DNA of 64,000 bases. Origin: Eledone cirrhosa. Taxonomy: Eukaryota. Made by a program: the position numbers and the translations under genes. Below the pieces are notes generated by a model. The model was given only the letters and a program-made list of their open reading frames with translations. It was not told where the DNA came from and did no database searches. Positions 355-63,667 of this stretch are shown here, in pieces. Positions within the stretch are counted from its first letter, which is position 1. The number at the start of each line of letters is the position of its first letter. The DNA lies in contig OZ024740.1 in assembly GCA_964016885.1 (NCBI GenBank), positions 324,074,001 to 324,138,000 of the forward strand. Reading direction: 5' to 3'.

Positions 355-525
<171 letters not shown>

Positions 526-578
526 GAAAATATTCAAGACACCGACGGCAAAGCTGGTTCCTTACCACACTTCCTTCG

Positions 579-760
579 TGGATTGTCAGTATCCGTAGAG
601 GGTCGGACGCCATGCTTTGACGCATAGAGTTATGGCCCTTGCCATTCTCAGTTCAAATCCCGCCGAGGTTAACTTTGCCTTTCATCCTTACGGGGTCGAT
701 AAAATAAAGTACCAGTAATGTACTGGTTAATTTGCTGCCCTTGTGCCAAAAGTAGAAATA
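579..760 (+). mobile_element. tRNA-derived SINE, family A (type copy; about 20 copies in the window)
   Basis: tRNA-like head with B-box-like GTTCAAATC, then conserved CCCGCCGAGGTTAACTTTGCCTTTCATCCTTACGGGGTCGATAAAATAAAGTACCAG, recurring on both strands throughout the window. Confidence 0.85.
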
Positions 761-4732: not shown

Positions 4733-4942
4733 TAGGAAAATGTTTAACCCCGACGGCAGAGCTCAAGCCGTTTCGACGGCTATTTTTGGACTAACTATTT
4801 CTGTAGTCCAGAAATAGCCGTCGAAACGGCTTGACCTCTGCCGTCGGGGTTAAACATTTTCCTATTACCCACTCTACTATCTAAAGTATTGAGTACTCTG
4901 GTGCGTTATGGTCCATCTGGTTCCATACCACACTTCCTTCGT
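4733..4942 (+). mobile_element. Palindromic (TA)n-associated element, family P (60-bp-arm hairpin plus ~80-bp tail)
   Basis: Arms 4733-4793 and 4804-4864 are near-perfect reverse complements. The tail TTACCCACTCTAC..ATTGAGTACTCTGGTGCG..CCACACTTCCTTCGT is shared with other copies. Confidence 0.85.
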
Positions 4943-5182
4943 TATATATATATATAACAGCATTTTGTATATAAGCTTTGGAACCTTGAGTGAGTTGAAA
5001 GGCTTAGAAATGTAGAAAACGCACATAGACGTTTATAGGGGTATTTTACCCGATTTTCTAACACTGTTAATAGCTATTTTCTTGCATTCGAGATTTCCTA
5101 CATTTCTAAACACACAGACACACGCGCGTTTGCAATATGAAAACTTAACTTAATAGTCGCCAAGCTTTCCCTTCTAACAGTA

Positions 5183-8087: not shown

Positions 8088-9036
8088 TCTATATATATAA
8101 AACTGTGGTTGTCTGTCTGTCTATCGATTTTTGGCACACATCTGCTCTTAGAATCTCTCACGGAATTGCACCGAAATTGCTATACTTGTACATTGAGCCC
8201 TAGCGAAGACATCAGAAAAAAAAATATTTCAAATTGACCCACCCTATGTGACGAAATCGAATATAATGTATCGATTTTTGAGCGTAAGTTATCAGTTATT
8301 TCCCTTTGTTCTGTTTACATTGAGCGTCTTACGTAAAAAATTACGCTGGCTTTCTCAGCGTTTACGAACAGTTGTCGAGCCAGCAAAATATTGACCTGCA
8401 AAATTCATCAGTTCGAACACTAAGCTTCCGTTTTGCTTCATTTCCATTTAAAAGCATTTTAAAACAATATTTTTACTTGAAAACAAGTCTATTTAAAGAC
8501 TACGTAAAACAAGCAAATATTTCGTCGTTAGGCGTGCAGACAGACAGTCGTGCAGAGAGGTGATATACGCGTGCAGACAGACAGTCGTGCAGAGAGGTGA
8601 TATAGGCGTGCAGACAGACAGTCGTGCAGAGAGGTGATATAGGCGTGCAGACAGACAGTCGTGCAGAGAGGTGATATAGGCGTGCAGACAGACAGTCGTG
8701 CAGAGAGGTGATATAGGCGTGCAGACAGACATAACTGATAATTTGGTTACGCTAATGTTTTTCTCTGCGTTGCAGTGTTTACATTTTCGATCTTTGTTAA
8801 TAAATAACCAGTGCAGTTTCTATCCCCAGCATCCTCTTTTGTTATAACATTCGGGTTATCGTTATGTTTTCTTAACTTCATAAGGCATATTGTTGGTTGA
8901 GGGAATATTAATCAAAAACACCACATGCAAGTCTGCACAGTAGACACTACAGTTTTTAAGCCAAGAAAGAAACTTAACATTGTAACTTTAACACAGCTAC
9001 TGAGCGACCCCGAGCAACGCCGGGCTTTACTGCTAG
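8088..9036 (+). mobile_element. Non-autonomous Helitron
   Basis: 5' A|TCTATATATATAAAACTG..GTCTGTCTGTC; 3' hairpin CCCGAGCAACGCCGGG then CTAG|T. No TSD; inserted between A and T. Confidence 0.85.
8530..8730. repeat. 37-bp minisatellite (~5.4 copies) inside the Helitron
   Basis: Unit AGGCGTGCAGACAGACAGTCGTGCAGAGAGGTGATAT. Confidence 0.95.
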
Positions 9037-11171: not shown

Positions 11172-11312
11172 CTGTGCTGGTGAGACCGGGGAGACTCAAA
11201 TAATGGAAGTACTCAATGCATGGGGAGGTGTAAAATCCCGACGGCGGTGCCAAACGGATTCAGCTTGTGTGTTCACAAGCCGAAAACGCTTGGTACCCTA
11301 GTCGGGATTTTA
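11169..11312 (-). mobile_element. Microsatellite-anchored hairpin element, family Q
   Basis: Hairpin 11231-11312 (TAAAATCCCGAC..GTCGGGATTTTA). Tail homologous to about 33800-33890 and 52945-53005. Confidence 0.6.
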
Positions 11313-11538
11313 TATCTCTCTCTCTCATATTTGTGTGTGTCCGTGTTTGTTTTTTGTTTGACCACTTGACCATGTACGGTAAGTATTGGGTTTCATAAAG
11401 AGATCGATGAAATACTGGGGTTGCATGTATCCATCCAGTTTTTAAAGGACAGACTTAATCCCTCGCCCATTTTATCACTACCACCTCGCTTTTGGGCGCT
11501 CTAACATTCTAGCTAGTGTCCAGCCTCAAGATAATTCT

Positions 11539-13543: not shown

Positions 13544-13882
13544 GCGGGGGGGGGGGGAGATTGGGGTTATAATATGAAATGTGGCGTCTTCATTCAGCTG
13601 AAATAGTTAACTCTTATTAGATATCATTTTAACAAGCCCCCCCCCCCCACCACCACCATCCTCATATTACCTACCGACCGCCAACCTCCACCTACATGAG
13701 TCAACTGGTTTATTAATCGGATGTGTGTGTATATGTGTGCGCATGTGTGTGTGTAGTAGATACATGTATGCTGGCTGGTGTGTGTGTCGTATAGTTTGTG
13801 TGTATGTGTGTCTGTGTTGCCTTGTTATACGTGCGTAGATTCAGAGAGAGTGATCGTATATATATATATATATATATATATA

Positions 13883-14070
13883 ACGAAGGAAGTGTGGTAA
13901 GCAACCGGATGGACCATAACGCACCATAGTACTCAATATTTAGGGTAGTAGAGTGGGTAATAGGAGAATGTTTAACCCCGACGGCAGAGCTCAAGCCGTT
14001 TCGAAGGCTATTTCTGGACAGAAATCGCCGTCGAAACGATTTGAGCTCTGCCGTCGAGGTTAAACATTCT

Positions 14071-14074
<4 letters not shown>
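13883..14074 (-). mobile_element. Palindromic element, family P copy
   Basis: Hairpin 13961-14074 with the tail in reverse orientation; (TA)n on both sides. Confidence 0.85.
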
Positions 14075-15693: not shown

Positions 15694-16531
15694 TATGCCT
15701 TCATATAACCTTTATATAGTCTTCCTCTGTTAGGGATGACGCTATAGTAATGCTATGGCTACTATCAGGAATTATATATGCCTTCATATAACCTTTATAT
15801 AGTCTTCCCCTGTTAGGGATGACGCTATAGTAATGCTATGGCTACTATCAGGAATTATATATGCCTTCATATAACCTTTATATAGTCTTCCCCTGTTAGG
15901 GATGACGCTATAGTAATGCTATGGCTACTATCAGGAATTATATATGCCTTCATATAACCTTTATATAGTCTTCCCCTGTTAGGGATGACGCTATAGTAAT
16001 GCTATGGCTACTATCTGGAATTATATATACCTTCATATAACCTTTATATAGTCTTCCCCTGTTAGGGATGACGCTATAGTAATGCTATGGCTACTATCTG
16101 GAATTATATATGCCTTCATATAACCTTTATATAGTCTTCCCCTGTTAGGGATGACGCTATAGTAATGCTATGGCTACTATCTGGAATTATATATACCTTC
16201 ATATAACCTTTATATAGTCTTCCCCTGTTAGGGATGACGCTATAGTAATGCTATGGCTACTATCTGGAATTATATATGCCTTCATATAACCTTTATATAG
16301 TCTTCCCCTGTTAGGGATGACGCTATAGTAATGCTATGGCTACTATCTGGAATTATATATACCTTCATATAACCTTTATATAGTCTTCCCCTGTTAGGGA
16401 TGACGCTATAGTAATGCTATGGCTACTATCAGGAATTATATATACCTTCATATAACCTTTATATAGTCTTCCCCTGTTAGGGATGACGCTATAGTAATGC
16501 TATGGCTACTATCAGGAATTATATATACCTT
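15694..16531. repeat. 83-bp tandem repeat, about 10 near-identical copies
   Basis: Unit CCTTCATATAACCTTTATATAGTCTTCCCCTGTTAGGGATGACGCTATAGTAATGCTATGGCTACTATCWGGAATTATATATR; period read from 15781 to 15864. Confidence 0.95.
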
Positions 16532-16656
16532 CTGGGATATAAAACCTGAGAAATCTGACGTACAAGGAATATAATCGTTTGTTGTACACCTGAGGATACA
16601 CTAAGTATTGGCTTCATTACAGTTGTGGGTGTCAGTGTGTGTGTTTGGGTACGAAC

Positions 16657-20333
<3,677 letters not shown>

Positions 20334-20969: not shown

Positions 20970-21031
20970 AAAAAAACATCTGGCATGAAGCCATGGTCGA
21001 GTACAAGTAGTGACTATAGATATATATTGGG

Positions 21032-21091
21032 TCGTCAAGTATGACAATTGTAGAAAAAAAAACAAATTTCTACAGATTTCATACTTGACGA
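21032..21091. mobile_element. Tiny MITE-like inverted-repeat element (also at 50989-51053 and 51079-51148)
   Basis: TIR consensus TCGTCAAGTATGAAATTTGTAG / CTACAAATTTCATACTTGACGA in three copies. Confidence 0.65.
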
Positions 21092-21092
21092 T

Positions 21093-21267
<175 letters not shown>

Positions 21268-34106: not shown

Positions 34107-34218
<112 letters not shown>

Positions 34219-34349
34219 GTTTAACCCCGAAAGCAGAGCTGACGGCTATTTATTTCTGAACAGCATATATATGTATAGGTTATATTTAATTTGTTGGGAT
34301 TCAACAAGCTTAAAGATTTTTATAACTGATATAAAGCACTCAACAAATT

Positions 34350-34547
34350 GAAACTATATTTATAAAACCATATTTATTTTATTATACATATTTCAAGGGC
34401 AACCAGGCGTGTATGGTGCGCTTTCATGTCAATATTTATTTATAAAACAAATCTGTATTTTATCTGATGAAAGCGCACCATAATTTGCCTTGGTTGCCCT
34501 TGAAATATGTATAATAAAATAAATATGGTTTTATAAATATAGTTTCC
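34350..34547. repeat. Head-to-head inverted duplication (~80-bp arms)
   Basis: 34350-34428 is the reverse complement of about 34467-34547. Confidence 0.85.
34456..34521 (+). ncRNA. Type-I hammerhead candidate
   Basis: TATTTTAT CTGATGA AAG..ACC(loop)GGT..CTT GAAA TA tg TA TA ATAAAATA. 8-bp stem I, AUA site. Confidence 0.65.
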
Positions 34548-34578
34548 ATTTAGTAATATATATATATATATATATATA

Positions 34579-37677: not shown

Positions 37678-37835
37678 CTATTTCTGGACTCAAATAGTCC
37701 AGAAATAGCTGTCGAAACGGCTTGAGCTCTGCCGTCGGGATTCTGACTCTTCTCCTATTACCCACTCTACTACCCAAAGTATCGAGTACACTGGTCTGTT
37801 ATGGTCCACCTGGTTCCTTACCACACCTCCTTCGT
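37678..37835 (+). mobile_element. Family P copy with the left arm truncated
   Basis: CTATTTCTGGACT caaat AGTCCAGAAATAG..GAAACGGCTTGAGCTCTGCCGTCGGG plus the shared tail. Confidence 0.8.
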
Positions 37836-37875
<40 letters not shown>

Positions 37876-50833: not shown

Positions 50834-51236
50834 CGTGCGTGTGAAAGAGAGAGAGAGTTTTATAAAATAAATTAACTCCATTATGGCGCCAATTCACGTC
50901 TTTTCAATTGGCATGTGCTGCAGTTATATATTGACTGCCAACTACTTCGTTGTAATGTGTATGTGTGTACACAACAAACACACACACATCGTCAAGTATG
51001 AAATTTGTAGAAAAAACGACCATATGCCTCACTACAAATTTCATACTTGACGACCATATATATATATATGTATATACATCGTCAAGTATGAAATTTGTAG
51101 AAAAAAACACATGACCATATGCCTCACTACAAATTTCATGTTTTACGACCCGATATATATACATATATACATACACTTACATACTCATGAACATACACAT
51201 CGTCGTTTAAGTGAGTTAGACCTATAGATAGATAGT

Positions 51237-59240: not shown

Positions 59241-59392
59241 TAGGAAAATAGTCAAGACCCCGACGGTTGGGCTCCAGCCGTTTCGACAGCTAGATCCGAA
59301 CTGACTCTTTTCTTATTACCCACTCTACTGCCCTAAGTATCGAGTACTCTGGTGCGTTTTTGCTTCAGCTGGTTCTTTACCACACTTCCTTT
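59241..59392 (+). mobile_element. Family P variant with the right arm partly deleted
   Basis: TAGGAAAA..CCCCGACGGTTGGGCTCCAGCCGTTTCGACAGCTA plus the shared tail. Confidence 0.75.
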
Positions 59393-59395
59393 ATT

Positions 59396-63049: not shown

Positions 63050-63251
63050 TAGGAAAAAGTATGACCCCGACGGCAGAGATCAAGCCTTTTCGACGGCTAT
63101 TTCTAGACTCCTTCAGTCTAGAAATAGCCGTCGAAACGGCTTGAGCTCTGCCGTCGGGGTCATACCTTTTCCTATTTCCCACTCTACTACCCTAAGTATT
63201 GAGTACTCTGGTGCGTTATGGTCCATCTGATTCCTTACCACAATTCCTTTG

Positions 63252-63252
<1 letters not shown>
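63050..63252 (+). mobile_element. Family P copy
   Basis: Hairpin 63050-63174 plus the shared tail running into (TA)n. Confidence 0.85.
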
Positions 63253-63339
<87 letters not shown>

Positions 63340-63371
63340 AGAATATTTTCGAAACAGCGAGTTGATTTGAA

Positions 63372-63604
63372 ATTATTAGAAATGTTAGCTATCGCCGTAT
63401 TTTGACTAAAGAAATTAAAGAAATTATTTAGCCTGATAGTGGGGTTAAGAACCCTCGGAGAAATGGAAAAAGATGAGTATTGACGTACATGTACGTCTAT
63501 ACTCATCTTTTTCCATTTCTTCGAGGGTTCTTAACGCCACTATCAGGCTAAATAATTTCTTTAATTTCTTTAGTCAAAATACGGCGATAGCTAACATTTC
63601 TAAT

Positions 63605-63607
<3 letters not shown>
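63372..63607. repeat. Spacer-less ~236-bp palindrome between (TA)n tracts
   Basis: Centre GACGTACA|TGTACGTC at 63489/63490; about 4 differences between the arms. Confidence 0.9.

Positions 63608-63667
<60 letters not shown>

What the first reader, a model, noticed from the sequence alone, without database searches (positions are those of the whole stretch)
4733..4942. Palindromic family P: the 3' half of a hammerhead on both strands, with no CUGANGA
Seen: copies at 4733, 13883, 37678, 59241 and 63050, plus fragments at 524 and 34211, nearly all abutting (TA)n. Each arm reads stem-C-GAAA-CGGC(loop)GCCG-UC-GGGG, which matches hammerhead stem II', GAAA, stem III, a GUC site and stem I'. The 59241 copy has a different but still pairing stem III (CGGCTGG/CCAACCG). 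Where CUGANGA should be, the reverse complement of the 3' half stands instead. Loop and arm ends differ between copies while the two arms of each copy stay matched. Inference: a hammerhead pLTR symmetrised by template switching that still amplifies, either as a trans-cleaved substrate half or as a dsRNA/hairpin element.
Basis: partly seen in the sequence, partly recalled or inferred. Interest (0 to 1): 0.75.

Follow-up and report, generated by a model that had tools for sequence, protein, structure and literature searches.

The report
Penelope stubs starting inside their hammerhead
These palindromes are back-to-back stubs of an abundant Penelope-like jumping gene whose full-length copies carry the whole hammerhead motif; the stubs lack its first half, likely because the element's RNA begins in the middle of the ribozyme and is copied twice from there, which makes the insertion mechanism testable.

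Summary
The repeat is real, but it is not a self-amplifying palindrome. It is a ~130-bp hairpin plus an 80-bp one-sided tail in (TA)n. Walking upstream through the genome leads to a Hydra-clade Penelope-like element (PLE) with intact 717-aa ORFs in 3.5-kb tandem arrays. Its pLTR holds a complete type I hammerhead motif. The 'missing' half lies ~40 nt upstream of the hairpin apex and mostly reads UUGANAA (U3-A8; 1,684 exact matches); U3·G8, C3-G8 and C3·A8 copies also exist. Hairpins are two 5'-truncated pLTR copies joined head to head: 112 of 128 apices differ, 120 of 128 have exactly one tail, and arms match in subfamily in 71 of 75. Arms stop at TTAGTCC in loop II, often behind an extra G (42 of 74; null 22%), the expected trace of a copied cap. 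So the apex likely marks the RNA 5' end, and both target strands are likely primed on one RNA. Stems show no covariation, cleavage is not shown, and no RNA data were available. Inverted truncated copies, tails and U3-A8 cores are in print; this scan noted the same architecture in other families.

The parts
4733..4794 (-). Inverted, tail-less, 5'-truncated pLTR copy (left arm): from the predicted RNA start to the proximal reverse-transcription start site (..TTCCTA)
4795..4803 (.). 9-nt junction insert at the apex; it repeats part of the left arm and puts a G in front of each arm (read on each arm's own strand)
   Evidence: L001 is this copy
4804..4865 (+). Direct 5'-truncated pLTR copy (right arm), starting at TAGTCC inside hammerhead loop II
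4823..4849 (+). Hammerhead 3' half: GAAA 4823-4826, stem III 4827-4830/4840-4843, GUC 4843-4845 (predicted cut after 4845), stem I' GGGG 4846-4849
   Evidence: sequence; register against long copies
4866..4945 (+). 80-bp tail between the two fixed 3' ends (..CCTAT| and ..GTTAT|); in full-length copies it runs on into the ORF leader
13880..14074 (-). Full hairpin copy with the tail on the left, between (TA)n runs
37678..37838 (+). Right arm plus tail; the left arm is only a 13-nt stub
59241..59395 (+). Copy of a divergent subfamily: inverted arm 59241-59302 with the hammerhead half; the direct arm starts downstream of the GUC and carries the tail
63050..63255 (+). Full hairpin copy with tail
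521..582 (+). Fragment: short inverted arm joined to the last third of the tail
34208..34262 (+). Fragment of an inverted arm next to (GA)n

Best explanation
Each palindrome is two short 5'-truncated pLTR copies of a Hydra-clade Penelope-like retrotransposon joined head to head, likely made in one insertion event in which both cut strands of a (TA)n target prime reverse transcription on the 5' end of the element's predicted capped RNA. Shown: the parent element, its full hammerhead motif, two fixed 3' ends 80 nt apart used one per arm, a 5' hotspot at TTAGTCC inside loop II, an excess of G before it, unique apices and same-subfamily arms. Inferred: transcription starts at that hotspot from an internal promoter, so the leading pLTR of the mRNA has only the 3' half of the hammerhead (predicted cut at +41, RT start sites at +61 and +141, ATG at +232), while the trailing pLTR has the whole motif. 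A dimeric RT-endonuclease would start at both sites, mostly on the same RNA, run off the cap and copy it as C. End joining with short inserts or microhomology would then fuse the two cDNA ends. Starting at the trailing pLTR instead would give the long copies with the full hammerhead. The stubs are dead-end products that decay neutrally.
For: Parent: a 43-mer extending the arm upstream has 587 exact matches, several as inverted pairs 0.4-3.8 kb apart. These contain RT/endonuclease frames. Three of five tandem arrays fetched hold intact 717-aa ORFs in 3.53-3.54-kb units. Full hammerhead: 1,684 exact matches of the U3-A8 5' half. In 48 copies not selected on it, N7 is the only variable core base (A14 C28 T4 G2) and the other six core bases are 47-48 of 48 invariant. 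Three U3-A8 copies fold as three-way junctions. Hotspot: of the first 100 arms on contig C1, 80 end within 14 nt of the anchor, 44 at GTCC/AGTCC/TAGTCC, and 8 reach the 5' core. In 128 pooled hairpins, 125 of 256 arms end at those three positions. Cap trace: G precedes the arm in 42 of 74 insert-bearing junctions at the hotspot (null 0.22, p 1e-10; 16 of 63 elsewhere), in 21 of 34 after dropping templated inserts (p 7e-7), and on both arms in 8 of 24. One tail: 120 of 128. Same subfamily: 71 of 75 classifiable pairs, against a shuffle mean of 25 and maximum of 39. Of 30 pLTRs that run into the ORF leader, 6 begin with this hairpin and 15 follow a full hammerhead. In print: a PLE protein cuts and extends both strands and starts internally at two sites that bound the tail, and is predicted to dimerise (PMC11167929). 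Penelope has an internal promoter in the pLTR (PMC2377424). An untemplated 5' G is read as a copied cap in L1 (PMC9341517).
Against: No RNA data, so the start site and cap are inferred from DNA junctions only. The G excess is partial (57%), and C is also frequent before AGTCC (12 of 41). The 128 hairpins were pooled from loci picked by different searches, and 53 were dropped from the subfamily test because an arm could not be classed. The 100-arm sample counts both arms of some insertions and comes from the first 24 Mb of one contig. Rfam finds no hammerhead in the window listing shown or in 5 long copies. Stems show no compensatory double change and do not beat the shuffle control. The youngest subfamily's fold has z -0.09, and only 1 of 7 G8-bearing copies folds as a hammerhead by MFE. 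Pfam and PDB give no RT or GIY-YIG hit for the broken-copy frames, ten homologs or the profile.
Confidence: 0.8

Rival explanations
1. The structure is the same, but the hotspot is a structural stall: the RT starts in the trailing, complete pLTR and stops in loop II because of RNA structure or bound protein, not at an RNA end.
For: The hotspot lies inside a predicted stem-loop. Ends spread over about 15 nt. Reverse transcriptases can add untemplated bases (recalled).
Against: The added base is G-biased at the hotspot and much less so elsewhere (42 of 74 vs 16 of 63, p 2.6e-4). ORF-linked leading pLTRs begin at the same place. Long copies read through the site.
Confidence: 0.1
2. Fold-back: one cDNA runs to the RNA end, folds on itself and is copied back, so the second arm is a DNA-templated copy of the first.
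For: Arms are usually of one subfamily (71 of 75). 42 of 128 apices are blunt or microhomology joins.
Against: The tailed arm is longer in 42, shorter in 45 and equal in 33; both arms carry the extra G in 8 of 24; 4 of 75 join different subfamilies. In L080 and L081 the tail-less arm is the longer one by kilobases.
Confidence: 0.06
3. One reading: a symmetrised hairpin element that amplifies as a unit, as a trans-cleaved substrate half or a dsRNA element.
For: High copy number (3,319 strand matches of an exact hairpin pattern). The short apex GGACTCC recurs in that listing.
Against: 112 distinct apices in 128 hairpins. The arms are not homogenised and show mostly G>A and C>T decay. Few copies start at the GUC cut: 1 of 30 tail-anchored arms, and 3 clean of 30 short second arms, against a spread over 30 positions.
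Confidence: 0.03
4. An ordinary MITE or Helentron that targets TA.
For: An inverted repeat in (TA)n, with TTAA-CCCC...GGGG-TTAA inside some copies.
Against: The inverted repeat is not terminal, because the tail lies on one side. TTAA is one of several subfamily variants. The sequence is collinear with the pLTR of an RT-encoding element.
Confidence: 0.01

Closest known systems
Hydra clade of C-terminal EN+ Penelope-like elements (Craig et al. 2021, PMC8557442; outline, passages, section 11, supplement parts 1-2 and a supplement search)
   Same: RW(K/R), DKT, YRDD, CxCx5C linker, CxxC and CxH around the E and N, no CCHH, ~700-aa ORF, (TA)n targets, partial tandems, inverted 5'-truncated copy, tail, hammerhead in the pLTR.
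   Different: All Hydra hammerheads in File S2 have CTGANGA cores and loops II of 3-10 nt. Here the core is mostly UUGANAA, loop II is ~33 nt and the tail is 80 nt. The unit is 3.5 kb rather than under 3 kb. Four motifs of this family have 0 hits in that supplement, so it is not Hydra-1_Obim.
Poseidon PAc of Anolis (Frangieh et al. 2024, PMC11167929; parts 1-2 of 4 read)
   Same: Internal RT initiation at two sites that bound the tail, both target strands cut and extended, AT-rich targets, predicted dimer, hammerhead not needed for insertion.
   Different: A different clade. The parts read do not map a capped 5' end inside the hammerhead or describe short head-to-head stubs. Here the two sites are 80 nt apart and lie upstream of the ATG.
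U3-A8 minimal hammerheads of Schistosoma Cercyon PLEs (Cervera and de la Peña 2014, PMC4209133; parts 1-2 of 4 read)
   Same: U3-A8 covariation in a PLE hammerhead; pairs of motifs on opposite strands 100-700 bp apart.
   Different: Those are minimal motifs with no helix III. Here stem III has 4-5 bp plus a near-palindromic loop, and four states of the 3:8 pair occur within one lineage.
Penelope of Drosophila virilis (Schostak et al. 2008, PMC2377424; 7 passages)
   Same: Internal promoter and start site within the pLTR; partial tandems flanked by inverted repeats of variable size.
   Different: A 34-bp tail and an intron near the start; no stub class is described in the passages seen.
Metazoan non-LTR retrozymes (Li et al. 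2026, bioRxiv 10.64898/2026.07.22.740005; part 1 of 5 read)
   Same: Short non-coding, hammerhead-related, PLE-derived repeats.
   Different: Retrozymes are tandem units that each hold a complete hammerhead. These stubs are inverted, hold half a motif and are not a replicating unit.

Membership tests
EN+ Penelope-like element | Single ORF with RT and C-terminal GIY-YIG endonuclease | tested here: met
   717-aa ORF with YRDD and VIY..YIG; 229 homologs, the best 120 at 35-56% identity; Atlas neighbours carry GIY-YIG and RVT_1 in 18-77% of members. Pfam and PDB gave no hit for fragments, homologs or profile.
EN+ Penelope-like element | Tandem or partial-tandem copies forming pLTRs | tested here: met
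   3,531-3,543-bp head-to-tail units.
EN+ Penelope-like element | Inverted 5'-truncated copy at the 5' end | tested here: met
   77 of 100 arms have an inverted partner nearby; long inverted pairs.
EN+ Penelope-like element | Tail at one end only | tested here: met
   120 of 128 hairpins; 80 nt instead of the published 30-40.
Hydra clade | RWK, DKT, CxCx5C, CxxC/CxH motifs and no CCHH | tested here: met
   LRWRT (K to R), SDKT, CNCPDRSIC, CNLC, CKH; CCHH judged absent by eye.
Hydra clade | Insertion into (TA)n | tested here: met
   TA follows 100 of 114 tail-less ends and 104 of 125 tail ends.
Hydra clade | Canonical CUGANGA hammerhead | tested here: not met
   The dominant core is U3-A8 (1,684 matches); C3-G8 occurs in 11 matches. 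A variant, not an absence.
Hydra clade | Placement in the RT phylogeny with published members | not tested
   Published sequences were only seen in the supplement text; no tree was built with them.
Type I hammerhead ribozyme (full pLTR) | Core nucleotides in register around three helices | tested here: met
   the hairpin stubs themselves lack positions 3-9.
Type I hammerhead ribozyme (full pLTR) | Covariation in the helices | tested here: not met
   32 copies: no double change in stems I-III; only the 3:8 pair changes on both sides (UA 17, UG 10, CG 4, other 1), in a set enriched for G8 by my choice.
Type I hammerhead ribozyme (full pLTR) | Self-cleavage at GUC | not testable with these tools
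   Indirect test only: no clear peak of copies starting at the cut site.
MITE | Terminal inverted repeats at both ends | tested here: not met
   The tail lies outside the inverted repeat on one side.
MITE | Target-site duplication | tested here: inconclusive
   (TA)n flanks mask any TA duplication.
Non-LTR retrozyme | At least two tandem units, each with a complete hammerhead | tested here: not met
   The stubs are inverted and hold half a motif.

The most novel reading that the evidence does not exclude
The stubs are a genome-wide record of Penelope's insertion mechanism: one dimeric enzyme copies a single capped RNA twice, from two fixed start sites, onto both strands of the target. The promoter sits inside the hammerhead, so the RNA's leading end carries only a substrate half that cannot cut off its own cap unless the trailing pLTR lends the 5' half. 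Meanwhile the catalytic 3:8 pair of this lineage has switched repeatedly among U-A, U·G, C-G and C·A while the element kept transposing, which gives a natural allelic series for asking whether PLE hammerheads need to cleave at all.
Probability: 0.4. Interest if true: 0.6.

Novelty: new variant of a known kind. Interest (0 to 1): 0.38.

Why it matters
How PLEs build their inverted ends and what their hammerheads do are named as open questions in PMC8557442 and PMC11167929. This family supplies an intact, young 717-aa protein, two precisely mapped 3' ends, a predicted RNA start and thousands of natural products, so the two-strand, one-RNA model can be tested directly in the published in vitro assay. 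It also warns annotators: such palindromes look like MITEs or miRNA hairpins (one search shows a sub-threshold miRNA match at 63081-63143) but are PLE by-products.

Tried and rejected
A search for CTGANGA within 8-36 nt of the arm gave 19 matches. All were apex or flank sequence without the stem register; the true gap is ~55 nt, so that search could not find the parent. A Neptune assignment was my first reading from the linker; I dropped it after the Hydra motifs matched. Rfam: no hammerhead among the 150 of 411 window matches listed or in 5 long copies. Pfam: nothing meaningful for five broken-copy frames and ten homologs; the intact protein was not scanned against Pfam. PDB: no hit. The structure prediction had not finished, so there is no fold evidence. 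Cleavage-derived 5' ends: no clear peak. A-to-I editing: no A>G excess in young copies (A>G 30 vs T>C 78 over 46 overlapping alignments); the arm test had only one A and is uninformative. RNA: no RNA holder listed. Contigs of four runs were laid; their depth is not a copy number and is not used as evidence. No PLE ORF lies in the window. Supplements of PMC11167929 and PMC4209133 were not read and may bear on stub classes and U3-A8 activity.

Full report
Observation. The stretch at 4733 is a 132-bp hairpin followed by an 80-bp unique tail, between TA runs. Related sequence lies at all seven places named, but only 4733, 13883 and 63050 are full hairpins. The arm has GAAA, a 4-bp stem III, GUC and GGGG in hammerhead order, and no 5' core lies near the five main copies. 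An exact 22-mer of the arm has 17,737 matches in the 3.0-Gb genome.

The parent. Some apices kept extra sequence. Using it as a pattern gave 587 matches, several as inverted pairs 0.4-3.8 kb apart, and these contained RT and endonuclease frames. A pattern for the tail running on into the leader (447 matches) led to head-to-tail arrays of 3.53-3.54-kb units. Three of the five arrays fetched hold intact 717-aa ORFs, and units in one array are 99.97-100% identical. The protein has RWR, DKT, YRDD, CxCx5C, VIY..YIG, CxxC and CxH, the motifs that define the Hydra clade (PMC8557442 section 11). It is not the published Hydra-1_Obim: four motifs had 0 hits in the supplement. Against: Pfam and PDB searches were blank, and no tree with published members was built.

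The missing half. About 40 nt upstream of the apex, long copies read CCCC-UUGA(N)AA-G, then stem II, a ~33-nt loop, stem II', GAAA, stem III, GUC and GGGG. This is a type I hammerhead with U3-A8 in place of C3-G8, a variant in print for Schistosoma PLEs (PMC4209133). It has 1,684 exact matches. In 48 copies not selected on the core, only N7 varies, as expected for the one free core position. Three such copies fold as three-way junctions, with z -2.9, -2.7 and -0.09. A search for G8 gave 59 matches, 48 U3·G8 and 11 C3-G8 (counted from the listing); C3·A8 copies occur too. On a tree of 44 copies (of 96 found; 26 dropped as truncated and U-A copies thinned from 52 to 26), the four states need 11 changes, and well-supported branches force at least 5 for U-A (bootstrap not fully settled). 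Against an active ribozyme: Rfam does not score it, the stems show no compensatory double change, only 1 of 7 G8 copies folds correctly by MFE, and few copies start at the cut site (1 of 30; 3 clean of 30).

How the hairpins arise. Of the first 100 arms on contig C1, 80 stop within 14 nt of the anchor, 44 of them at three adjacent positions in TTAGTCC, and 8 reach the core; 77 have an inverted partner, and 73 of those pairs have exactly one tail. In 128 pooled hairpins, 112 apices are distinct; 86 have inserts, 22 are blunt and 20 use microhomology. So each hairpin looks like a separate junction, not a copied unit. At the hotspot, the base in front of the arm is G in 42 of 74 insert-bearing junctions (null 0.22; 16 of 63 elsewhere), in 21 of 34 after removing templated inserts, and on both arms in 8 of 24. 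An untemplated 5' G is the accepted trace of a copied cap in L1 (PMC9341517), and Penelope has an internal promoter in its pLTR (PMC2377424). The same hairpin heads 6 of 30 copies that run into the ORF leader, while 15 follow a complete hammerhead in tandem. I infer that the apex is the RNA 5' end. The two 3' ends are fixed, both end in TAT, and TA follows in 100 of 114 and 104 of 125 cases; they match the two internal RT start sites described for PAc. Arms share subfamily in 71 of 75 classifiable pairs (shuffle mean 25), which points to one RNA, or one source, for both arms, with occasional mixed templates. Neither arm is consistently longer (42, 45, 33 equal), which argues against fold-back. 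The arms differ from each other as much as from other copies and show mostly G>A and C>T changes, so they are decaying and not maintained as hairpins.

Comparison and novelty. Inverted 5'-truncated copies, one-sided tails, (TA)n targets and U3-A8 cores are all in print. I did not find a paper placing a capped start inside the hammerhead or explaining short PLE palindromes that way, nor one on U3-A8 activity in these elements; the library lacks most subscription papers. Earlier notes of this scan describe the same architecture for other families in this and other genomes; none matched this sequence. I had reached the same reading before opening them. Verdict: a new variant of a known kind. Interest is moderate, because the family offers a concrete test of an unsettled mechanism, but the RNA start, the cap and cleavage remain inferred.

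Noticed in passing
window 63284-63664: A second, unrelated ~330-bp hairpin directly after the 63050 copy, between (TA)n runs; probably a stub of another PLE family.
   Followed up: no
window 34345-34551: 207-bp hairpin with CTGATGA at 34464 near its apex.
   Followed up: no
window 11225-11318: Degenerate hairpin with GAAA..GTCGGG arms that resembles the same half-hammerhead layout.
   Followed up: no
window 21015-21109 and 51032-51100: Two short hairpins of another shared family (CATACTTGACGA) next to TA runs.
   Followed up: no
window 580-760 and 16 other places: A SINE-like repeat with 17 hits in the window; its likeness to cephalopod tRNA-derived SINEs is recalled, not tested.
   Followed up: partly
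L344, L352, L358: Copies of the youngest subfamily with A8 changed to G and little other A>G change. They were selected for G8, so site-specific A-to-I editing is neither shown nor excluded.
   Followed up: partly
L300-L303, L305: Tandem arrays of near-identical 3.5-kb units with intact ORFs, so the family was active very recently.
   Followed up: yes
L272, L283, window 59241: A divergent subfamily with a different sequence before GAAA; its arms end near a GTTC motif at a similar distance from the core.
   Followed up: partly
alignment A3 columns 112-125; The 9-11 nt after GGGG, predicted as the internal loop of stem I, are the most variable part between subfamilies, while CCCC/GGGG and GGAA/TTCC stay fixed.
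   Followed up: partly
window 15694-16532, 16710-20333, 8529-8731: An 83-bp tandem array (10 copies, 98%), a 3.6-kb TA-rich array and a 37-bp array.
   Followed up: no
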